A stretch of 64,000 nt of DNA from Gammaproteobacteria bacterium (GCA_965221955.1 CBDCTA010000005.1:1-64000); one strand, 5' to 3'; counted from the stretch's first letter, positions 676-26,811 are shown. The notes: a model not told the origin generated them from the sequence alone. Numbers and translations are program-made.

Positions 676-776
676 ATGTCCGCTATTGGCCGAAAGCAGA
701 CATAAAATAGGATCAAATAGGTTGGAATCAATTACATACAATAGGAAAATGACTGCTAACGACCCAAAGCGGATAT
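676..776 (+). repeat. Inter-cassette element 1 (A 676-703, B 749-776)
   Basis: ATGTCCGCTATTGGCCGAAAGCAGACAT...GGTTGGAATCAA...ATGACTGCTAACGACCCAAAGCGGATAT. Confidence 0.95.
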
Positions 777-794
777 TTTTATAGTGGGTAGGTT

Positions 795-1499
795 ATGAAC
801 AAAATTGCTTCGTCAATATTAATATTTTCTGTTATCTCCTGTAGTACACCACATCAACAGACCGAGATTTCTAAAGAAGATGATGTTCGTATTGGTCATG
901 TTAAGGGTTGCTGGTTATCGGAATACACATCCGCTGAGGAATCAAAATATGTCCTTCCATATCCAGTTGGCAAAGAATATGTAATTGGCCAGGGCAATTG
1001 TGGAATGTTCACTCATCAACCAGCTTCAATTATGAAAGGAGGATCTGTAGGTGACATACAGTTTGCCTATGATTTTTCAATGCCAATTGGTGACGAAATC
1101 GTTGCTGTAGCGGATGGAGTTGTCATTAATGTAGACGAACTTTGGGATGACAAAACTAATGACGTTACAAAACAAAACTTTATTGCTATAGAACATGATG
1201 ATGGAAGAGTCTCCGCCTATGTGCATTTAACGAGTTTTGGAAGTTTTGTTGAGATCGGAGACAAAGTTGAGCAAGGTCAAATTATTGGTAAAAGCGGTCA
1301 ATCAGGTTACGCACTTGACCCACATTTACATTTTTCTATATTTGAAAAGGATTATAAAGATTGCAATATTAGGGCAATTGAGTACCCCAAAGATTCAATA
1401 CTACATGGGTGTAAGACTGTTCCAGTTACATTTAAAAATGCCGAGCCATTAGATACACCTCCAATAGAAGGCAGAACATATAAAGCAGTACAAAACTAG
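795..1499 (+). CDS. Cassette 1: M23 family metallopeptidase lipoprotein
   Basis: Lipobox-like VISC; YxHL and PHLHF M23 motifs. Confidence 0.85.
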   Translation: MNKIASSILIFSVISCSTPHQQTEISKEDDVRIGHVKGCWLSEYTSAEESKYVLPYPVGKEYVIGQGNCGMFTHQPASIMKGGSVGDIQFAYDFSMPIGDEIVAVADGVVINVDELWDDKTNDVTKQNFIAIEHDDGRVSAYVHLTSFGSFVEIGDKVEQGQIIGKSGQSGYALDPHLHFSIFEKDYKDCNIRAIEYPKDSILHGCKTVPVTFKNAEPLDTPPIEGRTYKAVQN

Positions 1500-1507
1500 A
1501 AATATAG

Positions 1508-1607
1508 ATGTCCGCTTATGGCCGAAAGCGGACAAATTAAAGGGGAAACTGGCTGGATTCAATAAACTATAAACATAATATGACTGCTTACGACCCAAAG
1601 CGGACAT
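1508..1607 (+). repeat. Inter-cassette element 2 (A 1508-1535, B 1580-1607)
   Basis: Same A/B consensus, 44-nt linker. Confidence 0.95.
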
Positions 1608-1647
1608 TAAGAGCAGATATTGGAACTAGTAAGGAGATGTAGTTTTC

Positions 1648-2001
1648 GTGAGTAAAATCGTAATTATTGTAAATATTTTATTACTCTCTATTTCAAATTT
1701 AGCAACAGCCTCAAACTTTCAAAATGATTGTGAGGTGTTGAATAATGATTCATTAGAATGTTCTTTTAGTCTTGATCGTGATCATCCAACTATGTTGATA
1801 AAGGCAGAAAGTCGTTCTGTTTTAGATTCATACAAGCATTCTATTAGAAACACTACAAATGACTTTTGCAAAAATACAAAACATTCGTGGGTTATGTACA
1901 TACTTTTAGATGAGAGCCTTGTTAGTGGCGAAATGTGTAATGGTAAAAAAGCTAAGTGGATAACTTACGAGAAATTTAAAAAAGATGGGTTGGACTTTTA
2001 G
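1648..2001 (+). CDS. Cassette 2: small secreted hypothetical protein
   Basis: AAGGAG RBS upstream, signal peptide, 4 Cys; fills the space between two elements. Confidence 0.75.
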   Translation: MSKIVIIVNILLLSISNLATASNFQNDCEVLNNDSLECSFSLDRDHPTMLIKAESRSVLDSYKHSIRNTTNDFCKNTKHSWVMYILLDESLVSGEMCNGKKAKWITYEKFKKDGLDF

Positions 2002-2003
2002 CA

Positions 2004-2114
2004 ATGTCCGCTTATGACCGAAAGCAGACATAAATTAAGCCATTTGAGGGGATTTCAGGTTGGAATCAATGAAACATAAACTTAATATGACTGCTTACGA
2101 CCCAAAGCGGACAT
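2004..2114 (+). repeat. Inter-cassette element 3 (A 2004-2031, B 2087-2114)
   Basis: Same consensus; A core variant TGACCG; 55-nt linker. Confidence 0.95.
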
Positions 2115-2158
2115 TTATCAAAATTTTTATTCATTATTCTTTTGGCAAAAAGTAGTCA

Positions 2159-2464
2159 ATGAAATATTCGAAAAAAATCGTAATTAAATTCGTACTATTT
2201 ATTTATTTTGTATATTGCGTTTATTTAATTACATTTGCTGGAATAGATTTTAAAGCGCTCGATAATGAAAATTTGTTTATAGCAGTGAGTTATATAGTTG
2301 GATTAATTCTGTGTTTACCTGCGAACATTTGTATATTAGTTCCTGAAAGTTGGATTAGTACAACATTTTCATCTGACTTATGTGTATTTATAATAGGGTT
2401 AATTGTTGCAACATTTGTGGTTTTTGTTGCGTCTAAAATCATCTATTCTCATAAAACCGAATGA
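2159..2464 (+). CDS. Cassette 3: small membrane protein
   Basis: About 3 hydrophobic segments; TGA stop lies inside the next A site. Confidence 0.7.
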   Translation: MKYSKKIVIKFVLFIYFVYCVYLITFAGIDFKALDNENLFIAVSYIVGLILCLPANICILVPESWISTTFSSDLCVFIIGLIVATFVVFVASKIIYSHKTE

Positions 2465-2561
2465 TCGCTATTGGCCGAAAGCGGACAAAATAAGGGACAC
2501 AATGTGTTGGAATCAATTAATAACACGTTCAAAATGACTGCTAACGACCCAAAGCGGACAT
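2461..2561 (+). repeat. Inter-cassette element 4 (A 2461-2488, B 2534-2561)
   Basis: Same consensus, 45-nt linker. Confidence 0.95.
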
Positions 2562-2588
2562 TTTATTTATTTAATAGATCCAATAACG

Positions 2589-2971
2589 ATGCATAAAATA
2601 GCTAATGCTCTCGTTTTACTTGTAGTTTTATCAACCAGTCCCTTAGCCGATGAAGGCAATTCATCAGATAAAGTACGTTTCTATGATTTTCGCGAACTTG
2701 AAACTGCAACAATTAAAAAGGCTGCCTCCAAGGATCTGTATATGGTGTGACAATAATATCTTACGGTAACGATGAAAAATCACGGTCATATTACGAAGTC
2801 TTACAATCACTAACCAGCGAAGAATTTAAGATTCAAGCTTTATTTAGAGCAAAGAAAGATAGCTATGGTAGTGCAGATGTATATTTCAATGGGTACGAGT
2901 ATAAAAACGTTACTGATATTGATCAGCTAACTAAAATACTTGTTTTTGGAATGAAAAATATTTACATCTAA
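2589..2971 (+). pseudogene. Cassette 4: secreted hypothetical protein, frameshifted (or sequencing indel)
   Basis: ATG 2589 gives signal peptide MHKIANALVLLVVLSTSPLA; adding one A to the A5 run at 2715-2719 joins it to ORF 2747-2971. Confidence 0.65.
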
Positions 2972-2993
2972 ACTTCGATGGTTCTAGTATCTA

Positions 2994-3104
2994 ATGTCCG
3001 CTATTGGCCGAAAGTGGACGTAAATTAAACCGTTAAAGGGAGAGTCTGGTTGGATTCAATAAATAAAACATTCAAAATGACTGCTTACGACCCAAAGGGG
3101 ACAT
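2994..3104 (+). repeat. Inter-cassette element 5 (A 2994-3021, B 3077-3104)
   Basis: Same consensus, 55-nt linker. Confidence 0.95.
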
Positions 3105-3134
3105 TAATTTCAGGCAAAAATTAGGGGATATATT

Positions 3135-3631
3135 TTGAAACCAGAAAAATAATTGCTGTAGTAGTAAGACTATTTGCAATTGCATTACTTCTTACTATTG
3201 TTCGAGAATTAATTACAGCATTATGGGTAGTAAATGATTCGGTAAGTCTACGCCAGTATGGATTTATTTTTTTAGTCAGCGGGTTAGTTATAGTTGTATC
3301 TATTTTTCTATGGAACTTCCCTCTTACAATCGCGAAAAGAATTTACCCATTTGCTCTAGAAGACGAGCCTAAACATACATTTAACTCTGATGACTATTAT
3401 CAACTTGGTTTTATCCTATTGGGTATGTATCTATTATTTTATGTTATTTCTGATGGTGTGTTTTGGATTGCATTTACACTATATAGTGGTGAAGAGAAGA
3501 TGTATTCACCGCTGAAAGCTTTAGAGAATAAAGCTTCAATTGTTGCTACTTTTGTTGAGCTTGCTATCGCTCTTTATCTAATATTTGGAGCAAAGGGAAT
3601 CACTAATGCAATAAAGACGATCAGAAAGTGA
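3135..3631 (+). pseudogene. Cassette 5: multi-pass membrane protein, frameshifted near the start (or sequencing indel)
   Basis: AGGGGA RBS then TTG AAA CCA GAA AAA TAA; one extra A in run 3145-3149 gives MKPEKIIAVVVRLFAIALL..., open through ORF 3419-3631. Confidence 0.65.
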
Positions 3632-3641
3632 TTTTAGTATT

Positions 3642-3742
3642 ATGTCCGCTATTGGCCGTAAGCAGACATAAAATGGGACACAGTTGGTTGGAATCAAAGA
3701 ACTACAAATTTAAAATGTCCAGTATCGACCCAAAGCGGACAT
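3642..3742 (+). repeat. Inter-cassette element 6 (A 3642-3669, B 3715-3742)
   Basis: Same consensus, 45-nt linker. Confidence 0.95.
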
Positions 3743-3777
3743 TGGCTAATCGCTTGAAATGAAATTTAAATTGAATT

Positions 3778-4110
3778 GTGAATCCTTTATTTAACCGAAA
3801 TTTATTGGTTGTAACTACATTATTTGGTTTGGCATTAGTTGCATGTATGTTTGCTTGGGACTTTTCATCAAATGACCCAAGGATGGCAGATAATGTTATT
3901 TCAACTGGTGAATTTAATTGGTGGGAGACATTTATAATTTTAGTCGGAATACCATCAATTTTATTAGTTTGGGTTTATTCATTTAAACATGCATTCTCTA
4001 ATGGACGTAGAAAATGGGGTGTACTTATATTTATGTTATGGCCGCTAGCATTTTTCTACGCATGGTTTATTGCTGATGCTGTGATAGATTCTTCAAGAGA
4101 ATCTGGATGA
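3778..4110 (+). CDS. Cassette 6: small membrane protein
   Basis: 3 hydrophobic segments; TGA stop is part of the next A site (ATGACCGCT). Confidence 0.72.
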   Translation: MNPLFNRNLLVVTTLFGLALVACMFAWDFSSNDPRMADNVISTGEFNWWETFIILVGIPSILLVWVYSFKHAFSNGRRKWGVLIFMLWPLAFFYAWFIADAVIDSSRESG

Positions 4111-4206
4111 CCGCTATTGGCCGAAAGCAGACATAATTAGGAAATAACAGGTTGGATTCAATAATTTACAGACTTAAAATGGCTGCTAACGACCCAAAGC
4201 GGACAT
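4107..4206 (+). repeat. Inter-cassette element 7 (A 4107-4134, B 4179-4206)
   Basis: Same consensus, 44-nt linker. Confidence 0.95.
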
Positions 4207-4220
4207 CGGCATAAATCAAA

Positions 4221-4535
4221 ATGGCTACCTACATGAAAACGAAGTTAATCGTTTTGACAGTAACTATTTGGGTTATTTTTCCAATTGTTGTGGGAATCGT
4301 TTATTCATTATTTGAAAGAGAGGATTTGGATATTGCATTGATGAATAATGTTATTAGAGTTGGAATATTAATATTCGCACTACTATCAGCTCTAACACTA
4401 TATCTCTGCACCAAATTTTTACTCAAGACAAGTAAAAAAAATACTGATAAGGCCGTCTCTATTGTTTGTATGTTAGCTACATTGGCAGCAGTCGTTTTAT
4501 TTACACCTGCAATGTTGAATAATTTTATTGTTTAA
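4221..4535 (+). CDS. Cassette 7: small membrane protein
   Basis: 3 hydrophobic segments; fills the inter-element space. Confidence 0.7.
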   Translation: MATYMKTKLIVLTVTIWVIFPIVVGIVYSLFEREDLDIALMNNVIRVGILIFALLSALTLYLCTKFLLKTSKKNTDKAVSIVCMLATLAAVVLFTPAMLNNFIV

Positions 4536-4550
4536 TAGGAAAATAGTTAA

Positions 4551-4637
4551 ATGTCCGCTATTGGCCGAAAGGAGACATCAGGTTGGAAATATCAAAACAA
4601 AGTAGTTTAATGACCGCTAACGACCCAAAGCGGACAT
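4551..4637 (+). repeat. Inter-cassette element 8 (A 4551-4578, B 4610-4637), shortest copy
   Basis: 31-nt linker that still keeps GGTTGGAA 29 nt before B. Confidence 0.95.
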
Positions 4638-4674
4638 TAATCCCGTTTTCCAAAATTAAGTTGATGGTGTAAAA

Positions 4675-5067
4675 ATGATTGTGTTAGAAGTTAAATTGAA
4701 TGGAGAGCTCATCGCTAAAGCTGGTAAAAGTGATTTATGTGTATTGAACACAATAGTTGATGGTGTTGGTGTTTTAGGTGCTGATTCTGCCGGAACTAAA
4801 TCAGAAAAAGAAGGATATAAGACTAGTCTGAGTGTGGGTGGGCTAGGTGTAACAGCTGAGGATGAACCTGGCACACATTACAGTTGGGTTGGTAAACAGA
4901 TAATTAATGTAGGTGATGAGGTATCTATTAAATTTCTAGAATCAGAAAATGCACATGATCCTAAAATCGTAAGAGCATATACACCAGAGGAAAAAGAAAA
5001 GGAAATGAAACTACGCTGGGAAACATCACGGGACTACTATTTAAAATACAAAGACAAATATGAATAG
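4675..5067 (+). CDS. Cassette 8: soluble hypothetical protein
   Basis: 130-aa ORF bounded by elements 8 and 9. Confidence 0.75.
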   Translation: MIVLEVKLNGELIAKAGKSDLCVLNTIVDGVGVLGADSAGTKSEKEGYKTSLSVGGLGVTAEDEPGTHYSWVGKQIINVGDEVSIKFLESENAHDPKIVRAYTPEEKEKEMKLRWETSRDYYLKYKDKYE

Positions 5068-5070
5068 CAA

Positions 5071-5181
5071 ATGTCCGCTATTGGCCGAAAGCAGACATTA
5101 TTAAGATGTTACTAGGACAAGCTGGGTTGGAACAATCAAATTATTCATTCAAAATGACCGCTAACGACCCAAAGCGGACAT
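5071..5181 (+). repeat. Inter-cassette element 9 (A 5071-5098, B 5154-5181)
   Basis: Same consensus, 55-nt linker. Confidence 0.95.
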
Positions 5182-5211
5182 TAGGTTAATCAATTTAAAT
5201 GGGAGGTTGGA

Positions 5212-5787
5212 TTGAATAATTCAAAAAAGACATTTCCTTAAATATCTTTTTGGAGCATTTTTGCAGGTGTTGGGGCAACCCTTGCTGCAATACCTTTTTT
5301 TAGATTTCTCTCACCCAAAGATTATTTAAGTGAAGAATATTCTAAAGATATAAATATTTCTAAACTTAAGCCTGGCCAGGTAATGTCTATTGTTTGGCAC
5401 AATAAGCCAATTTACATTTTGAAACGAGATCAAGATGCTATCAATAGTTTAGAAATTGATAATCCTAAATTGCGTGATACGGCTTCAAGTCAGTCTAAAC
5501 AGCCGGAAAATGCAAAGAATACCTTTCGCTCAATTAAGCCAGAAATACTTGTTGTAGAGAGTATTTGCACACATAAAGGATGCTCTGTTGCGTATGACCC
5601 TCCTGGGAAAAACCGTTTCCCCAAGGACCATGTGTTATCAAAATATGGCGGGTTTTATTGTGCCTGTCATGGGGCTGTTTATGATGCTGCTGGTCGCGTA
5701 TTTAAAAACAATCCTGCACCGCATAATTTAGTTGTGCCTCAGCACGAATTTTTAAATGAACACACAATCAGATTTAGTCACAATTGA
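5212..5787 (+). CDS. Cassette 9: Rieske 2Fe-2S protein, PetA (bc1 iron-sulfur subunit)-like; 5' end disrupted by in-frame TAA 5239-5241
   Basis: CTHKGC and CACHG Rieske boxes, GRVFK-x2-PAPxNL; GGAGG RBS before TTG 5212; N-terminal TM segment upstream of ORF 5383. Confidence 0.85.
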
Positions 5788-5809
5788 ATCAATTATGATT
5801 AATTTAGAA

Positions 5810-5910
5810 ATGTCCGCTATTGGCCGTAAGCGGACATAATTAGGGATGCAATGTGTTGGAATCAATAAATTATAAGTTCAAAATGTCTGCTAACGACCCA
5901 AAGCGGACAC
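5810..5910 (+). repeat. Inter-cassette element 10 (A 5810-5837, B 5883-5910)
   Basis: Same consensus, 45-nt linker. Confidence 0.95.
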
Positions 5911-5946
5911 TTCAGGATCAGTTAATAATATTCAGATAAATCAGAA

Positions 5947-6195
5947 ATGAATCCTATTCCACTTATTATTGTTTGGATAATTCTATTCGCTGTTGTAATA
6001 GGATATGTGGTTTATCGTTTACTTACAGACAAAGAAAAAAGTGGCAAAAAACATTGGCTTTACCCTTTAAATAGCAATCCTGGTGATCCCATGTTCCCCA
6101 AACCAGGCAATATATTTGGCTGGGTAATTTACCTGCTGTTATTACTTCCTATAATTTACGTGATTGGAATGTTAGTAAATGAAAATTTATTCTAG
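5947..6195 (+). CDS. Cassette 10: small 2-TM membrane protein
   Basis: Two hydrophobic segments; bounded by elements 10 and 11. Confidence 0.7.
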   Translation: MNPIPLIIVWIILFAVVIGYVVYRLLTDKEKSGKKHWLYPLNSNPGDPMFPKPGNIFGWVIYLLLLLPIIYVIGMLVNENLF

Positions 6196-6219
6196 TTGGA
6201 TTAACCGCACAAAATATAA

Positions 6220-6330
6220 ATGTCTGCTATTGGCCGAAAGCTGACATAAATTAAGCCACTGAGAGGAATTACAGGTTGGAATCTTTAAAATACTTATTCA
6301 ATATGACCGCTAACGACCCAAAGCGGACAT
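6220..6330 (+). repeat. Inter-cassette element 11 (A 6220-6247, B 6303-6330)
   Basis: Same consensus, 55-nt linker. Confidence 0.95.
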
Positions 6331-6370: not shown

Positions 6371-6739
6371 TTAACAATCCCTGTATCCTTTCTTTTTCTT
6401 ACACGTTAAAGCTAATTTTTTAGCCTCTTCGATTTCAGAAGGAGTCATATTTGCAGTTATTTTTCTTAAAGCTTCATCTGCTGTCGCGCCTAACCCTTGT
6501 TCTACCGCAAAGCTCACCCACATATATGCATATTGATTGTCCTGGGGTACGCCATTGCCTGTGTGATACGCTTTGCCAATTTTTAATTGACTAATCGCTG
6601 CACCATTCTCTGCAGATTTAAGCGCTTTGAACGCATCTTTTTCCGCTCTCTTAGCAGCCATTTCTTCGGGTGATGAGCAACCTGATAGAACTAAAACGAG
6701 AGCAAGCAAGGCTAGAAAAATGCGTAATTTAGGATTCAT
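6371..6739 (-). CDS. Sel1-repeat lipoprotein (inverted relative to the array)
   Basis: Lipobox LSGC; Sel1-like AENG...YHTGNGVPQD...AYMW; GGAG RBS. Confidence 0.82.
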   Translation of the reverse strand: MNPKLRIFLALLALVLVLSGCSSPEEMAAKRAEKDAFKALKSAENGAAISQLKIGKAYHTGNGVPQDNQYAYMWVSFAVEQGLGATADEALRKITANMTPSEIEEAKKLALTCKKKKGYRDC

Positions 6740-6859: not shown

Positions 6860-6887
6860 TTAAGCGCTAACGACCCAAGGCGGACAT
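6860..6887 (+). repeat. Lone degenerate B site
   Basis: TTAAGCGCTAA-CGACCC-AAGGCGGACAT. Confidence 0.85.
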
Positions 6888-6990
6888 TCGCATATAGTTA
6901 TCATGCTAATACTAAATTTTATACGGACTGATATTTTATAACTAACCTAAAAAATTAGTGTATTGGTTTAGATATTATTATTAGCCGCAT

Positions 6991-7680
6991 TTATATCAGC
7001 GTATTAAGTTCTGATAATGATTTGGTAACAAGATCGGGCTTATAAGAAAGCCGTTCCGAGACATGGTCGTAGCGATTTACCCATATAGAGTTAAACCCGC
7101 ATGCTGAAGCTCCAGCTATATCCCAAGAGTTAGAAGATATAAAACAAATTTTATTTCTAGCTAATGCAAGTTGTTCGCCCATAAATTCATATACTGCTGG
7201 AGATGGTTTATATGTACGAATTAATTCTGTGGAATAGATACCATCTATTAAATGATCAACACCAACTTGTTTTAAAGTAGTGCTGAGTATCTGAGGTGGG
7301 CCATTAGAGAGTACTGCTGTTGTTATTCCATTTTCCTTTAGTAATGTAAGAGCATTCTTTGCATCTTGATAGCAGTCTAATTTTGAATGTTCTAGTAGCT
7401 TGCTTTTAATTTTCTCATCGTCAAATCCATACACATCACAAGCGAAATCAAGTGTGTCTTTTCGAATCTTTTCATAATTCACATACTTATTCATTAGGCT
7501 TAGCAAAGAAGAATATTGTAGGCGTTTAGTCAACCACAATTTATAGATTTCTTGAATGTTTTCACCAAGTTGTTCACTATATTCTAAAAATGGTAAATAT
7601 GGATCAAGAATTAAGCCATAGGCATTAAATATATAAGCTTTAATGTTTTTCATATTTTTCTTCAATAATTTGGTTGGCAA
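6991..7680 (-). CDS. Haloacid dehalogenase type II (HAD) family protein; start more likely at ATG 7653
   Basis: FNAYG (motif I with Asp replaced by Asn), LSNG, YKPSP, SSNSWD. Confidence 0.85.
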   Translation of the reverse strand: MPTKLLKKNMKNIKAYIFNAYGLILDPYLPFLEYSEQLGENIQEIYKLWLTKRLQYSSLLSLMNKYVNYEKIRKDTLDFACDVYGFDDEKIKSKLLEHSKLDCYQDAKNALTLLKENGITTAVLSNGPPQILSTTLKQVGVDHLIDGIYSTELIRTYKPSPAVYEFMGEQLALARNKICFISSNSWDIAGASACGFNSIWVNRYDHVSERLSYKPDLVTKSLSELNTLI

Positions 7681-8093
7681 AGTAGACCGCTATGCGAGAT
7701 TGTCCTAATTAAAATAATATACATCTTGAGCTACTAAATTTTAGGTTGAGTACTCGTCTGGTTATAGTCAAAGAATATATATTTATTGAAAGCAAATACC
7801 TCGTGAGGTCTGTGCGAGGATACTAGAAGCTACAGAAACATTTAATGTAACTTCCACTATTTCGTTTATACAATAACTTTGTTTTGAAGTATAGGTAATG
7901 ATCTGAGGCAGTTAAACTGAAAATCAATATATAGCTGATATAGAACAAAGAAGAGTAGTTTATGAAAGTTTATTCTCTAATATCTTCATAGTTCACTTTA
8001 AGACGAGACAAACAATTAAATGATTGAAACTGTATTCATAGAAATGGTAGGCGCGTCAGCTGTTAACTTTAAATTTTTAAAGAGGTTCATCTG

Positions 8094-8585
8094 ATGATTC
8101 ATGAAGTTGCTGGAGATATTTTATTGACAAAAGCAAAAGCTATTGCTCATGGTGTGGCCCCAAATGACCATTTTAAGAATGGCCTAGCCCTTGAGTTGAG
8201 AGAACAATGGCCAGCAATGGCAAAAGATTTTCGTCATTACGCTAATCAGTCACACCCAAAAACTGGAGAGATTTGGGTTTGGAGTGGTGTGGGTGGGGTG
8301 CGTATTCTCAACTTACTAACACAGGAAGGAGGACACGAACACGGTGCCAAACCAGGTAGAGCCACACTGCCGAATGTCAATCACTGTTTGCGAAGATTGC
8401 GACATGAGCTTGAAAAGGGTGAGATTGCTAGTCTTGCATTACCAAAATTAGCCACTGGTGTTGGCGGTCTGAAGTGGAAAGAAGTGTCCCCATTAATCCA
8501 ACAGCATTTGAGTGATTTATCAATTCCTATATATATCTATACAACTTATCTCAAAGGTCAGAAAGCAAACGAAATAGGCATGTAA
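8094..8585 (+). CDS. Macro domain (Appr-1-p processing) protein
   Basis: GDILL, HGVAPNDHF, LALPKLATGVGGL macro-family motifs. Confidence 0.85.
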   Translation: MIHEVAGDILLTKAKAIAHGVAPNDHFKNGLALELREQWPAMAKDFRHYANQSHPKTGEIWVWSGVGGVRILNLLTQEGGHEHGAKPGRATLPNVNHCLRRLRHELEKGEIASLALPKLATGVGGLKWKEVSPLIQQHLSDLSIPIYIYTTYLKGQKANEIGM

Positions 8586-8598
8586 TTAAACTATTATA

Positions 8599-8626
8599 AT
8601 GTCCGCTATTGGCCGAAAGCGGACAT
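8599..8626 (+). repeat. Terminal A site of the array
   Basis: ATGTCCGCTAT-TGGCCG-AAAGCGGACAT, full consensus. Confidence 0.95.
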
Positions 8627-8742
8627 TTCGAGTTCTCTTAACTTTAATCAGATACGTCATCCATGTTGTAAACTTTGTGAGTGCATCCATGCAGTCGTAC
8701 AATTTCTGTGCTTCCGTCATACATGGAGGCCGAAGCAGACAT
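8627..8742 (+). repeat. Conserved array-end sequence with NCATCCNTGN mini-palindromes, then a degenerate half A site (8728-8742)
   Basis: 8627-8692 aligns without gaps to the reverse complement of 25694-25759. Confidence 0.8.
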
Positions 8743-8757
8743 TATTAATCAGTAAGA

Positions 8758-10878
8758 TTAATAATTCCGATATACGAAAGAACTCGAATTTCTTGCTTCT
8801 AGAAGTTTTGTGAGGTCAGTGGCGATATGTGCAGTTTCGTCTAATAATACATCAATAAAAGCTTCATCATCGTCCAACTTATTAAGATTTTCCTCTGTAT
8901 CTTTCAGTAAGTTTTCATACTCGGAGCGTGTTGACTCAAGCCGTTTATATTCTTCTTTTCTAGTGGACTCTAGCAAAGAAACTGTTTTTTGATTTCTAAC
9001 ATCATAGTCCAGTTGAAATATTTCAATTAAAGAATTGAATTTTTCATCTTCGCGTATTCTGCTTTTGTGTTTTTCAGCTGTTTGGTTAATGATCTGTACG
9101 TCTACATCGCCATAATGATGTTTAACAGGGGAGATCGTGCTTGCAGGTAGCGCATTTTTTAATGCGCGTTCACCGTATGCTTCGTCTTCAGATAAGGTAT
9201 TGAAATCGATGTCTGGAACAACACCTTGATGTTGAGTGCTGCTGCCGTTTATACGAAAATATTGCGCTATGGTTGCCTTTAATTGACCAAGCTTTTCGTC
9301 GTCACTCGTGCTGAAATTATTTAAATCTACAAGTTGTTGTACGGTGCCTTTACCAAATGTAGTTTCACCTGCGACGATGCCGCGTCGATAATCCTGAATT
9401 GCGCTGGCTACAATTTCAGAGGCCGATGCACTATAGCGATCAACTAAAACCACTAACGGTCCATAATATGAAATATCAGAGTCACGATCACGATGTACTT
9501 CAATATGGCCACTTGAGTCTTGTACTTGCACGATCGGGCCTTCATCTATAAATAGGCCAGCCAACTGAGTCGCTTCTGTCAGTGAGCCGCCCCCGTTTCC
9601 GCGCAAGTCTAAAATTAATGCATCAATTTTTTGTTTTTTAAGCTCTGTGAGCAAGTTGTTCACATCGCGAGTGGTGCTTCTATAATCTTTGTCACCACGT
9701 TGGTATGCAGCAAAATCGATGTAAAAAGTGGGTACATCGATCACTCCAATTTTATATTGTTGTGCGCCTTCTTCTATTTCGATGACTTCACTCTTGGCAG
9801 CTTGTTCTTCTAATTTAATTTTGTCACGAGTAATTTGAATTTCTTTTATCTTTGCGGCTTGACCTTCATCACCCGGTAATATTTGCAAATTTACTTTGGT
9901 GCCTTTAGCGCCACGAATTAATGCAACCACTTCTTCCAAGCGCCAACCCACTACATCTTTAAATTCTTTTTCGTTTTCTTGTGAGATACCTACAATCCTG
10001 TCAGTACCGTGTAATAAATCACTTAAATCTGCTGGCCCGCCAGGGATGATTTTTTCTACTACTGTATATTCGCCATCTGTTCTCAATAACGCACCAATAC
10101 CTTCTAATGAAAGGCTCATTCGAATTTCAAAGTTTTTAGAAGTTCTTGGTGATAAATAGTTAGTATGAGGTTCTAAAGTACTTGCAAACGCATTGATGAA
10201 AAGTTGATAGACATCTTCAGCATCTACTTGTGTACTGCGTTTAGCAATACCTCTGTACCGCTTTTCTAATGTCTCTTTGATTTCTGAAGGTTTTTTATCT
10301 GCGAGTCTTAAAGTTAGTACATCGTTTTTTACACGCTTACGCCAGATTTCATTTAATTCATTACTGTTCTGAGCCCATGCAGATTCTGAACGATCTATGA
10401 TTAACTCTTCATCAATTTTAAAATTAAATTTATCTTCTAACAAATCTAAGGCAAATAATACACGTTCATCTACTCGTGCTTGATATAAGCGGAACATTTG
10501 GAAAGGAGCATTTAAATCTGTTCTAGAAATTGCATCATCTAGTTTGAAACGAAAGATTTGAAAACTATCAATATCCTTTTGATAGAAATAGCTGCGATTT
10601 GGATCTAATGCTTCGAGATAAGCATTTAATATTTGAGCAGAAAGCGTGTTGTTGATATTAAATTCTTTATAGTGGTACTTATCTAAAAAATGCGTGATCA
10701 GTTTAGTGGCACGATTATGTTGTTTTCCAGGACTAAGAATTTCGCTTGTATTACTATAGCTAACGCTGCTTGCAGCAATCAGCGTTAATGCGGTGAGACA
10801 GAAAAGGATTAATTTTGAAGAGAATTTTTCCAAAATAGAATGCTTAATATTGATGTAATTAATGTGCAGTTTAGACAA
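8758..10878 (-). CDS. prc: Carboxy-terminal processing (tail-specific) protease, S41
   Basis: PDZ GIGA, DLRGNGGG, SASASEI, TFGKGTVQ. Confidence 0.93.
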   Translation of the reverse strand: MSKLHINYINIKHSILEKFSSKLILFCLTALTLIAASSVSYSNTSEILSPGKQHNRATKLITHFLDKYHYKEFNINNTLSAQILNAYLEALDPNRSYFYQKDIDSFQIFRFKLDDAISRTDLNAPFQMFRLYQARVDERVLFALDLLEDKFNFKIDEELIIDRSESAWAQNSNELNEIWRKRVKNDVLTLRLADKKPSEIKETLEKRYRGIAKRSTQVDAEDVYQLFINAFASTLEPHTNYLSPRTSKNFEIRMSLSLEGIGALLRTDGEYTVVEKIIPGGPADLSDLLHGTDRIVGISQENEKEFKDVVGWRLEEVVALIRGAKGTKVNLQILPGDEGQAAKIKEIQITRDKIKLEEQAAKSEVIEIEEGAQQYKIGVIDVPTFYIDFAAYQRGDKDYRSTTRDVNNLLTELKKQKIDALILDLRGNGGGSLTEATQLAGLFIDEGPIVQVQDSSGHIEVHRDRDSDISYYGPLVVLVDRYSASASEIVASAIQDYRRGIVAGETTFGKGTVQQLVDLNNFSTSDDEKLGQLKATIAQYFRINGSSTQHQGVVPDIDFNTLSEDEAYGERALKNALPASTISPVKHHYGDVDVQIINQTAEKHKSRIREDEKFNSLIEIFQLDYDVRNQKTVSLLESTRKEEYKRLESTRSEYENLLKDTEENLNKLDDDEAFIDVLLDETAHIATDLTKLLEARNSSSFVYRNY

Positions 10879-24653: not shown

Positions 24654-25691
24654 TTGGCTTTATTAACGATGCAAGCAAAAACACAAATTCAAGATACTTT
24701 ATCACGACCTATTCGTGATCTAAGAATTTCGGTTACGGATCGTTGTAATTTTCGTTGCACCTATTGTATGCCGAAAGAAGTGTTCAATTCAGAATATGAG
24801 TTTTTACGCAGAGATGATTTGCTTAGTTTCGAAGAAATCGCTCGAATATCAAAAATTTTCGCAAATATAGGCGTCAAAAAAATTCGTTTAACTGGGGGGG
24901 AGCCCTTATTACGAAAGAATCTTCCAGTTTTAATTAAGCAACTATCAAATATTGATGGAATTGAAGATATCAGTTTAACCACTAATGGTGTTCTTCTAAC
25001 TACTGAAGTTGCGCAGCAATTAAAAGATGCAGGCTTGAAACGCATTACCATTAGTTTAGATGCGCTGGATGACGAAACATTTAAAGCGATAAGCGATGTA
25101 AATTTTAATGTAGAAAAAGTATTAGCCTCTGTAGAACATGCTCAGAACGCAGAGCTTGACCCCATTAAAATTAACATGGTGGTGAAAAAAGGTATTAATG
25201 AACATTCTATTTTGCCAATGGCGAAACATTATCACGGCAGTGGCGTTATTTTACGTTTCATTGAATTCATGGATGTGGGTAGCACCAATCAATGGCAAAT
25301 GGATGATGTGTTTTCTGCTAAAGAAATTGCAAATGTAATTCATCAAGAGTTGCCTATTGAACCTGCAGAAGCTAATTATCACGGTGAAGTGGCAAAACGC
25401 TGGCAATATAAAGATGGTGGTGGAGAAATTGGAATTATTTCTTCTGTGACGCAACCATTTTGCCAAAGCTGCACACGCGCAAGGCTTTCTGCAGAAGGCA
25501 AACTCTATACTTGTTTATTTGCTACACAAGGTAAAGATTTACGCCATCTTGTTCGCGAACAAGCAGACGATAAACATATTCAAGATGTCATTACTGCAAT
25601 TTGGAAAAAACGCAATGATCGTTACTCAGAACTACGAACTTCTGAAACCGTCTTGCTCCCAAAAGTAGAAATGTCTTATATTGGTGGGTAA
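24654..25691 (+). CDS. moaA: GTP 3',8-cyclase MoaA (start probably ATG 24669)
   Basis: CNFRCTYC radical-SAM motif, FCQSCTRAR, C-terminal MSYIGG. Confidence 0.96.
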   Translation: MALLTMQAKTQIQDTLSRPIRDLRISVTDRCNFRCTYCMPKEVFNSEYEFLRRDDLLSFEEIARISKIFANIGVKKIRLTGGEPLLRKNLPVLIKQLSNIDGIEDISLTTNGVLLTTEVAQQLKDAGLKRITISLDALDDETFKAISDVNFNVEKVLASVEHAQNAELDPIKINMVVKKGINEHSILPMAKHYHGSGVILRFIEFMDVGSTNQWQMDDVFSAKEIANVIHQELPIEPAEANYHGEVAKRWQYKDGGGEIGIISSVTQPFCQSCTRARLSAEGKLYTCLFATQGKDLRHLVREQADDKHIQDVITAIWKKRNDRYSELRTSETVLLPKVEMSYIGG

Positions 25692-25759
25692 GCGCATGGA
25701 TGCGCGCATATGATGCCCATCAGGGATGATGTAACAGATTAAAGTTAGGTATTTTCAAA

Positions 25760-25787
25760 ATGTCCGCTTTCGGCCATAAGCGGACAT
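25760..25787 (-). repeat. A site of the solo cassette
   Basis: Reverse complement ATGTCCGCTTA-TGGCCG-AAAGCGGACAT. Confidence 0.95.
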
Positions 25788-25828: not shown

Positions 25829-26116
25829 CTATAAAATATGTCGACGAATTAAAATCCAAGCAAGCGGCAGTAACGCAATCAAAGCCGATATTATTAATGA
25901 AGTTCTAAACGTGCCTTCTCGCGCTTCAATAATACACTGATATACAGCTATTCCTGCAATTACAAAGCTGAGCAACACCGGTATGAGAAACAAAGGTGCT
26001 GTAGACCATGCACCCCATCCATCATAATTGCGAATATATAATTCAATTCCAACAAGAACTGAAACAGGAATCAAGCAAAGAAATTCTAGTATATGCTTTC
26101 GGCCAATAGCGGTCAT
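25829..26116 (-). CDS. Solo-cassette cargo: small 3-TM membrane protein
   Basis: Hydrophobic ORF with ATGA overlap to the upstream gene. Confidence 0.72.
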   Translation of the reverse strand: MTAIGRKHILEFLCLIPVSVLVGIELYIRNYDGWGAWSTAPLFLIPVLLSFVIAGIAVYQCIIEAREGTFRTSLIISALIALLPLAWILIRRHIL

Positions 26117-26783: not shown

Positions 26784-26811
26784 ATGTCCGCTTTGGGTCG
26801 TTAAAGGTCAT
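26784..26811 (-). repeat. B site of the solo cassette, abutting the moaB stop codon
   Basis: Reverse complement ATGACCTTTAA-CGACCC-AAAGCGGACAT. Confidence 0.93.

What the first reader, a model, noticed from the sequence alone, without database searches (positions are those of the whole stretch)
676..6330. A and B sites have dif-like 11-6-11 geometry with two different conserved cores
Seen: both sites are 28 bp, with inverted arms (ATGTCCGCTWW / AAAGCGGACAT type) around a 6-bp core. The B core is CGACCC in all 13 B copies in the window. The A core is TGGCCG in 12 of 13 A copies, with one TGACCG. The gene-facing arms are better conserved than the linker-facing arms. Established: 28-bp 11-6-11 sites are typical of Xer-family tyrosine recombinases (dif and pdif modules), where core identity decides which sites recombine. 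The arm sequence here is not the E. coli dif sequence. Inference: AxA or BxB recombination could excise or reorder single gene-plus-element units, while AxB is blocked.
Basis: partly seen in the sequence, partly recalled or inferred. Interest (0 to 1): 0.85.

Follow-up and report, generated by a model that had tools for sequence, protein, structure and literature searches.

The report
Palindromic joints of a gene-cassette array
Two kinds of 28-base palindromic site bracket every small gene in this array, and related bacteria gain, lose and swap genes exactly at these sites, so they look like the joints of a widespread, undescribed gene-cassette system whose enzyme is still unknown.

Summary
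Window 676-6330 has 11 A sites (core TGGCCG, one TGACCG) alternating with 11 B sites (core CGACCC). The whole window has 14 A and 13 B; shuffles give none.

The unit is B-gene-A. Units are joined by 31-, 45- or 55-nt linkers. The genome holds 177 sites. Arrays and single units sit inside inverted roughly 60-115-nt "caps", the ends of a small mobile element.

Cassette content changes at the sites. Two 99%-identical contigs differ by blocks that end within 4 nt of a site. The locus beside prc holds no cassettes in some congeners and at least 12 units here.

The same arms occur in Alpha-, Beta- and Gammaproteobacteria, 276 plasmids and 461 E. coli genomes, sometimes with other cores.

Changes in the arms break pairing far more often than they restore it (161 against 9 cells), so I read the sites as protein sites, not hairpins.

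The Xer reading is not supported by sequence. The genome has a canonical dif that matches A and B no better than chance. No integron integrase, Y1 transposase or consistently present serine recombinase was found, so the enzyme is unknown.

Earlier notes of this scan (e1-779594, e1-779592, e1-897287) met the same palindromes elsewhere.

The parts
676..6330 (+). Array of 10 B-gene-A units joined by 11 A-linker-B junctions. The contig starts at window base 1, so the left end of the array is not seen.
676..703 (+). A site, core TGGCCG
749..776 (+). B site, core CGACCC
1508..1535 (+). A site, core TGGCCG
1580..1607 (+). B site
2004..2031 (+). A site with the variant core TGACCG
2087..2114 (+). B site
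2461..2488 (+). A site
2534..2561 (+). B site, identical to the B consensus
2994..3021 (+). A site
3077..3104 (+). B site
3642..3669 (+). A site
3715..3742 (+). B site with a divergent left arm (ATGTCCAGT)
4107..4134 (+). A site
4179..4206 (+). B site
4551..4578 (+). A site, followed by the shortest linker (31 nt)
4610..4637 (+). B site
5071..5098 (+). A site
5154..5181 (+). B site
5810..5837 (+). A site
5883..5910 (+). B site
6220..6247 (+). A site
6303..6330 (+). B site. It is followed by a reverse-strand Sel1-repeat gene (6371-6739), not by a B-to-A ORF.
6860..6887 (+). B site with a degenerate left arm. One metagenome contig joins 6307 directly to 6865.
6888..8598 (.). Last module: HAD hydrolase gene (6991-7680, -) and Macro-domain gene (8094-8585, +), between B' at 6860 and A at 8599
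8599..8626 (+). Terminal A site, identical to the A consensus
8627..8695 (-). Right-hand cap (inverted terminal element) that closes the array, just before the prc gene (8758-10878, -)
25686..25759 (+). Cap of a second, reverse-oriented short array
25760..25787 (-). A site of the second array. Its cassette recurs on contig C11 at 96.9% identity in another context.
26089..26116 (-). Degenerate A site (5 mismatches)
26784..26811 (-). B site of the second array

Best explanation
A and B are the double-stranded joints of a gene-cassette system. I propose that a sequence-specific site-specific recombinase binds the shared 9-bp arms (consensus ATGTCCGCT, inverted) and cuts in or beside the asymmetric core.

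Each gene module carries the well-kept arms: B right arm, gene, A left arm. Each linker module carries the variant arms. Recombination between like sites (AxA or BxB) would then excise, insert or swap a gene together with one junction. Different cores on the same arms would act as separate partner classes.

In this lineage the sites sit in the middle of a small mobile element, two inverted 'caps'. That element has seeded landing pads around the chromosome, and these have filled with anything from no cassettes to more than ten.

Shown: the anatomy; that content changes exactly at the sites; the wide distribution; the lack of hairpin-preserving variation.

Inferred: that a dedicated recombinase does this, that it acts on duplex DNA, and that cores set partner choice. 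The enzyme is not identified and is probably not encoded next to the arrays here.
For: Anatomy.
- 177 sites lie in the genome, 86 A and 91 B.
- 31 A-linker-B junctions have gaps of 31, 43-45 or 54-55 nt.
- About 15 single B-gene-A units exist.
- Roughly 60 caps bracket units in inverted orientation.
- Empty cap-site-cap elements exist.

Change at the sites.
- Contigs C14 and C23 share flanks at 99.0-99.5% identity but differ by replaced cassette blocks. They also differ by one module lying between two direct A sites. Every breakpoint lies within 4 nt of a site edge.
- The locus beside prc has neither caps nor sites in G001 and G013, and cap-A-cap in G002.
- It has one or two cassettes in G014 and G011, six junctions in G010 and at least 12 units in the window.
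- No cassette gene is shared between the window array and the G010 array.
- Twenty junction pairs share a linker (at least 85% identical) but have unrelated genes on both sides.
- The same cassettes recur in other contexts with homology ending at the site edges.
- One metagenome contig joins B to B', skipping 557 nt.

Protein site rather than hairpin.
- At arm positions paired in the consensus, variant cells are 9 compensated, 30 G-T and 107 broken in A.
- In B they are 0, 28 and 54.

Conserved recognition sequence.
- The exact 22-mer of B occurs in at least 106 stretches from many taxa.
- The arms occur 139 times in an alphaproteobacterial genome with other cores.
- They form an array of 53 sites over about 31 kb in a Lysobacter-family genome.
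- A-like sites occur in 276 plasmids and 461 of 5426 E. coli genomes.

Cassette genes are typical accessory cargo: GNAT acetyltransferases, globins, glyoxalase, HSP20, OsmC, Imm8, M23 peptidase. No recombinase is among them.
Against: No recombinase is identified.
- The genome has only XerC, XerD (on two contigs), one 437-aa integrase and one large serine recombinase.
- The serine family is missing from complete relatives that carry sites.
- A small tyrosine recombinase that sits beside A-type sites in other lineages was found in none of the 24 other genomes of this family.

The crossover point could not be mapped. All sites are alike, so homology runs through them.

Breakpoints at the sites would also arise from homologous recombination, because the sites are the best-conserved stretches. 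The C14/C23 difference could be an allelic exchange through the long flanks.

The two cores differ at 4 of 6 positions. A simple model with one circular cassette and one target site does not produce B on the left and A on the right.

No circular cassette and no raw junction reads were seen. The runs available were assembled contigs with small shares of the query.
Confidence: 0.55

Rival explanations
1. A and B are dif-like sites used by the host XerC/XerD, as in Acinetobacter pdif modules.
For: The sites are 28 bp and can be read as 11-6-11. One arm is well kept and the other more variable, in mirror image in A and B.

XerC and XerD are present and score above their NCBIfam cut-offs. In the complete congener G010 two searches found no other tyrosine recombinase.

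An array lies about 0.6-1.3 kb upstream of xerD in G000, G010 and one further relative.
Against: The genome's own dif is canonical and single. A and B match it at 9-10 of 28 positions, which is chance level. One canonical dif is present in each of three complete relatives.

The same arms occur in E. coli, Klebsiella, Lysobacter-family and alphaproteobacterial DNA. From my own knowledge, known Xer substrates keep dif-like arms.

No site lies within 1.5 kb of xerD in G019.
Confidence: 0.12
2. No dedicated recombinase exists. The junction is conserved expression punctuation (a promoter-like TTGGAA-17-nAAAAT, a short leader frame, hairpins at mRNA ends). Cassettes move by transformation plus homologous recombination, or by replication slippage between these conserved joints, as with REP/BIME-like elements.
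For: GGTTGGAAT lies at a fixed distance before B.

The frame through B is open for at least 10 codons upstream in 39 of 43 such copies, against 25 and 12 of 43 in the other frames.

No enzyme was found. Breakpoints fall in the longest conserved stretches, as homologous recombination would also give.
Against: Sequence-level conservation of a 28-bp site across classes and G+C contents of about 38-67% is not explained by a hairpin or a promoter role.

Arm variants mostly break pairing. No RAYT or Y1 transposase was found.

Only 1 of 11 junctions passes the promoter scan's threshold, and only 2 terminator-like hits fall on sites.

From my own knowledge, 28 bp of imperfect identity is a poor RecA substrate.
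Confidence: 0.2
3. The whole A-linker-B junction is an attC-like element. One strand folds into a long imperfect hairpin (A pairing with B), which an integron-type integrase supplied in trans recombines.
For: Four of six junction strands fold as a long A-B hairpin with bulges, z -2.4 to -3.2.

The linker length is variable, like the variable loop of attC. Cargo and array form resemble integrons and CALINs.

79 of 94 B sites in G019 are co-oriented with replication.
Against: No integron integrase scored above the family cut-off in any of 5 site-rich genomes.

The AAC triplet in B is not kept in Lysobacter-family copies.

Single units carry B and A apart, on either side of the gene, which the integron reaction does not give.

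Conservation is of sequence rather than structure. There is no A-B covariation at the polymorphic positions in 31 junctions.
Confidence: 0.1

Closest known systems
pdif (Xer) modules of Acinetobacter plasmids and chromosomes
   Same: 28-bp sites with inverted arms round a 6-bp centre. One arm is better kept than the other. Small gene modules are bracketed by sites and strung together, with no recombinase gene inside. For PMC12907356 and PMC7399989 I saw only the search listing and the start of the abstract; the rest is recalled.
   Different: The arms are unrelated to the host's own dif. There are two or more fixed core classes and conserved linker modules. A chromosome holds hundreds of copies, spread over several classes of Proteobacteria. 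Whether A and B are inverted relative to each other cannot be told from sequence: by my own comparison of the two consensus sites, A matches B at 22 of 28 positions read forwards and 21 of 28 read backwards.
Integron cassette arrays, attC sites and CALINs
   Same: Arrays of single, mostly co-oriented small accessory genes are separated by imperfect palindromes of variable length. Many arrays lie without an adjacent integrase. Cargo is similar. For the IntegronFinder paper PMC4889954 I saw only the listing and the start of the abstract.
   Different: No IntI was found. The sites are conserved in sequence, not only in structure. Single units have a full site on each side of the gene. The junction can be as short as A plus about 5-12 nt plus B.
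REP / BIME / REPIN elements
   Same: High-copy intergenic palindromes, often in pairs, that differ between strains. Earlier notes of this scan filed the palindromes here (e1-779594, e1-779592).
   Different: No RAYT or Y1 transposase was found. There is no compensatory maintenance of the stem. The same sequence occurs across classes and on plasmids. The order B-gene-A round cassettes is strict.
ERIC / Correia-type MITEs (for the caps only)
   Same: Roughly 60-115-nt inverted terminal parts with internal hairpins that show compensatory changes, inserted between genes. Note e1-779590 described a MITE family in this genome.
   Different: Here the centre of the element carries an A-type site, and in many copies gene cassettes as well.

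Membership tests
Xer / dif-like sites (including pdif modules) | 28-bp site: two 11-bp arms in inverted orientation round a 6-bp centre | tested here: met
   A 9-10-9 reading fits equally well.
Xer / dif-like sites (including pdif modules) | Arms resemble the host's XerC and XerD half-sites, that is, its own dif | tested here: not met
   The genome's dif was found at C4:59807. A and B match it at 9-10 of 28 positions; shuffled A gives a mean of 6.7 and a 95th percentile of 10.
Xer / dif-like sites (including pdif modules) | XerC and XerD are encoded by the host | tested here: met
Xer / dif-like sites (including pdif modules) | XerC/XerD bind and recombine the sites | not testable with these tools
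   Needs EMSA and recombination assays.
Integron / attC | An integron integrase (IntI) in the genome or beside the array | tested here: not met
   TIGR02249 scored above its cut-off in 0 of 5 site-rich genomes. No tyrosine recombinase was found in the 40 kb fetched round the G090 array.
Integron / attC | Conserved AAC and GTT triplets at the two ends of the element (feature recalled) | tested here: not met
   There is no GTT at the 3' end. The AAC inside B is replaced by TTC in Lysobacter-family copies.
Integron / attC | One strand folds into a long imperfect hairpin with extrahelical bases | tested here: inconclusive
   4 of 6 strands fold this way. There is no covariation between A and B in 31 junctions.
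REP / REPIN | A RAYT (Y1 transposase) in the genome | tested here: not met
   PF01797 gave 0 matches in G000, which is 96.6% complete.
REP / REPIN | The stem is kept by compensatory change | tested here: not met
   9 compensated against 161 broken variant cells, A and B together.
Serine resolvase / invertase sites | A small serine recombinase is present wherever the sites are | tested here: not met
   PF00239 was found in 12 of 41 relatives. It is absent from the complete, site-bearing G001 and G014.

The most novel reading that the evidence does not exclude
This is a third, sequence-defined gene-cassette system beside integrons and pdif modules. One conserved arm sequence, recognised by an as yet unrecognised recombinase, is combined with interchangeable cores that act as partner codes. 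The system spans several classes of Proteobacteria, plasmids and prophages. In this marine lineage it is spread round the chromosome on MITE-borne landing pads.
Probability: 0.4. Interest if true: 0.9.

Novelty: new variant of a known kind. Interest (0 to 1): 0.8.

Why it matters
If a dedicated recombinase works on these sites, they mark a large and so far unannotated route by which single accessory genes move between chromosomes, plasmids and prophages. That route would reach Klebsiella, Enterobacter and E. coli replicons.

The site is short and conserved enough to serve as a search key for such cassettes in any genome.

Same arms with different cores would be a natural counterpart of engineered heterospecific recombination sites.

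The MITE that carries a landing pad would explain how cassette hot spots become scattered round a small genome.

Tried and rejected
RNA families. Rfam searches found nothing credible on the array or on cap-bearing loci.

Mobile-element enzymes. Y1 transposase and IS110 transposase are absent from G000. The serine recombinase family does not track the sites. No integron integrase was found.

Small 218-aa tyrosine recombinase found inside the Lysobacter dokdonensis site cluster.
- It sits 40-130 nt from an A-type site in Lysobacter, an alphaproteobacterial MAG and pMOL30.
- It is present in 3 of 6 site-rich Lysobacter-family genomes against 7 of 115 others.
- It is absent from all 24 other genomes of the window's family and from the 40 kb fetched around the G090 array (the whole G090 genome gave no match at E <= 1e-20).
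- It remains a lead for other lineages, not an explanation here.

Crossover mapping. Comparing junction pairs that share a linker gave only a weak tendency for the B left arm to travel with the linker (mismatch 0.100 against 0.179). No tendency was seen for A 20-28.

Sequencing runs. Only assembled contigs with shares of 0.14-0.20 were on hand. Most joints are cross-matches between repeated junctions. No circular form could be looked for.

Promoter scan. Only 1 of 11 junctions passed the threshold.

Serine-resolvase idea. The outer 9 bp of the arms fit my recollection of the subsite consensus of Tn3-type resolvases. This is recalled and post hoc, and no small resolvase is present, so I dropped it.

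Literature. Three searches found no description. The two long site strings occur in no held paper. Supplementary files were not open to me and could hold such sequences.

Failed calls. One search failed on a term format and was not repeated. One search timed out and was rewritten.


Full report
**Observation**

The stretch 676-6330 holds 11 A sites and 11 B sites in strict alternation on the + strand. With up to 6 mismatches the window holds 27 sites, 14 A and 13 B. None appears in 100 shuffles at 3 mismatches.

All 13 B sites have the core CGACCC. Thirteen of 14 A sites have TGGCCG; the copy at 2004 has TGACCG.

Gene-facing arms match the consensus at 231 of 242 positions in the array. Linker-facing arms match at 215 of 242. 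The cores are at least as well kept as the arms, 0.94-0.95 genome-wide.

**Anatomy beyond the finding**

The repeating unit is B-gene-A. In the array, A is followed by a linker of 31, 44-45 or 55 nt and then the next B. The linker carries GGTTGGAATCAAT at a fixed 19 nt before B.

The window is contig C5 of a 2.69-Mb, 29-contig assembly. The genome holds 177 sites, 86 A and 91 B. They form 31 A-linker-B junctions and about 15 isolated B-gene-A units.

Upstream of the first B and downstream of the last A lies a roughly 60-115-nt element that I call a cap. It is present in inverted orientation at the two ends. It has two hairpins that show compensatory changes between copies. nhmmer finds about 60 caps in the genome.

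The window's array ends A (8599), cap (8627-8695, -), prc. Its left end lies beyond the contig start.

Elements consisting of cap, one decayed A-type site and cap also exist. The caps therefore look like the ends of a MITE whose centre carries a site. Note e1-779590 had described a MITE family in this genome.

Cassette genes are typical accessory cargo: M23 peptidase, Rieske protein, GNAT acetyltransferases, globins, glyoxalase, HSP20, OsmC, Imm8, PPK2 and cyanase. About half have no Pfam match. None is a recombinase.

**Distribution**

- The B pattern occurs in 20 of 41 relatives, G000 included, and in 18 of the 24 other genomes of its family.
- The exact 22-mer of B occurs in at least 106 stretches of the species collection. 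Record titles include Woeseiaceae, Thiotrichales, Nitrospina, Caulobacteraceae, Alphaproteobacteria, Lysobacter, Billgrantia and Hahella. Some of these are MAG bins and could be mis-binned.
- The bare arms, with any core, occur 16 times in L. dokdonensis and 139 times in an alphaproteobacterial MAG. There the cores fall into at least three classes.
- In the Lysobacter family, 33 of 121 genomes have at least one site and four have 16-52.
- G090 has 53 sites in about 31 kb with the same A, short gap, B, gene order.
- A-like sites occur in 276 plasmid records, 88 each from Pantoea and Klebsiella, and in 461 of 5426 complete E. coli genomes.
- One of the E. coli sites lies at the edge of extra genes in a lambdoid prophage. 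None of the copies whose annotation I read is annotated. This confirms the lead of note e1-779594.

**Are they recombination joints?**

Contigs C14 and C23 carry the same xerD-dsbC neighbourhood at 99.0-99.5% identity. Between the shared parts, C14 has three cassettes (1.5 kb) where C23 has about eleven kilobases of others. C14 also has an HxlR-flavodoxin module between two direct A sites where C23 has one A site. All four breakpoints lie within 4 nt of a site edge. At one of them the 10 central bases of the site are inverted between the two contigs.

Beside prc, seven congeners compare as follows:
- G001 and G013: no cap and no site.
- G002: cap-A-cap.
- G014 and G011: one or two cassettes between caps.
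- G004: two A-type sites on a short contig end.
- G010: six junctions.
- The window: at least 12 units.

The window and G010 arrays share only junction elements, with hits of at most 136 nt.

Twenty junction pairs share a linker but have unrelated genes on both sides. Two cassettes recur elsewhere in the genome with homology ending at the site edges. One metagenome contig joins B (6307) to B' (6865), without the Sel1 gene.

These data show that content changes at the sites. They do not show the rate. They also do not separate site-specific from homologous recombination, because the sites are the longest conserved stretches.

**Duplex protein site or hairpin?**

At arm positions that pair in the consensus, variant cells are 9 compensated, 30 G-T and 107 broken for A. 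For B they are 0, 28 and 54. The common variants are one-sided: A position 23 G to A in 31 of 86 copies, B position 4 A in 60 of 91, and B position 6 T in 45 of 91.

In 31 junctions there is no association between A and B at the positions that would pair in a long hairpin. Folding predicts such a long hairpin for 4 of 6 strands, so it is physically possible. Nothing in the variation asks for it.

Conservation of the same letters in DNA of about 38-67% G+C points to recognition by a protein.

**Which enzyme?**

G000 has four Phage_integrase matches:
- XerD on C14 and on C23, 402 bits against the XerD model;
- XerC, 367 bits;
- one 437-aa integrase.

It has one 544-aa serine recombinase. It has no Y1 transposase and no IS110 transposase.

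The genome's dif is canonical and resembles A and B no better than chance. G019, G010 and G001 each have one such dif. No integron integrase passes its cut-off in any of five site-rich genomes. The serine family is found in 12 of 41 relatives and not in the complete G001 and G014.

A 218-aa tyrosine recombinase lacking an N-terminal domain lies between two A sites in L. dokdonensis. Homologues in an alphaproteobacterial MAG and on pMOL30 also have an A-type site shortly upstream. It is enriched among site-rich Lysobacter-family genomes, 3 of 6 against 7 of 115. It is absent from G090 and from all 24 other genomes of the window's family.

So in this lineage the only site-specific recombinases always present are XerC and XerD, whose known specificity does not fit. 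The enzyme is unknown.

**Cores and partner choice**

The same arms carry TGGCCG and CGACCC here and in the Lysobacter family. In enterobacterial plasmids they carry TGGCAC. In the alphaproteobacterial MAG they carry TGGCAC-type, TGACCC and a G/C-run class.

No experiment-like evidence for an AxB block was obtained.

By my own comparison of the two consensus sites, A matches B at 22 of 28 positions read forwards and 21 of 28 read backwards. Their relative polarity therefore cannot be told from sequence. Only the mirror-image arm asymmetry suggests that they face each other across the gene.

**Comparison with known systems**

- The system works most like pdif modules and integron cassette arrays.
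- It fails the defining sequence test for Xer sites, and the integrase and end-motif tests for attC.
- It fails the RAYT and stem-maintenance tests for REP elements.
- I found no description in three literature searches. For the papers named I saw listings and abstract starts only, and supplements were closed.

**Limits**

- Several genomes are MAGs.
- G000 has 4.3% contamination. C14 and C23 may be two strains or a duplication.
- Kin are not independent, so the counts across relatives are descriptive.
- The tally includes the unpublished G129 (3 sites).

Noticed in passing
window 709-781 and the ten other junctions; genome-wide, 43 B sites with GGTTGGAAT upstream: A short frame starts at the TTG of GGTTGG, 27 nt before B, and runs through B (peptides such as LESINYKFKMTANDPKRT...). 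It stops within about 60 nt after B (peptides of 18-39 residues), and in the window's units this is just before the cassette ORF. It is open for at least 10 codons upstream in 39 of 43 copies, against 25 and 12 of 43 in the other frames. A purine-rich AGGGA/AGGGG lies 6-9 nt before the TTG. It may be a leader peptide or a translational coupling device. The copies are related, so the count overstates.
   Followed up: partly
window junctions, for example 3688-3716: TTGGAA, 17 nt, then nAAAAT, ending on the AT of B's ATG, looks like a sigma-70 promoter at a fixed place in every junction. Only 1 of 11 passes the scan's threshold of 9 of 12.
   Followed up: partly
window 8627-8695 (-), 25686-25759 (+); about 60 copies in G000: The caps are roughly 60-115-nt elements with two hairpins that show compensatory changes. 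They are always in inverted pairs round arrays, single cassettes or a lone decayed site, and are often followed on the outside by a 20-21-nt truncated site. They have no Rfam match. They were found in related gammaproteobacterial MAGs only, not in the Lysobacter locus scanned.
   Followed up: partly
G019 (complete relative), 94 B sites: 79 of 94 B sites point the way replication runs, taking dnaA at 585 kb as the origin and dif at 1.912 Mb as the terminus. The sites are clustered, so they are not independent.
   Followed up: partly
A-to-B gaps: G000 31 / 45 / 55 nt; G090 11-12 / 22 / 32-33 nt (26-nt frame): Linker lengths step by about 10-11 nt within a lineage. This could mean helical phasing of two bound sites, or simply a few linker families related by descent.
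   Followed up: no
G000 contigs C14:1-16000 and C23:3228-27587: The xerD-dsbC region is assembled twice at 99.0-99.5% identity with different cassette arrays. This is either two co-assembled strains or a duplication.
   Followed up: partly
window 2589-2971 and 3105-3631: Two cassettes look damaged. One has two abutting ORFs of 53 and 74 aa. In the other, the listed ORF starts only at 3419 although B ends at 3104.
   Followed up: no
L146:5698-6354 (L. dokdonensis); plasmid hits: A family of roughly 200-220-aa tyrosine recombinases without an N-terminal core-binding domain is common on large plasmids at about 65% identity, for example P. aeruginosa megaplasmids, pMOL30 and Burkholderia. It is annotated only as 'tyrosine-type recombinase/integrase'. 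Its sites and role seem uncharacterised.
   Followed up: partly
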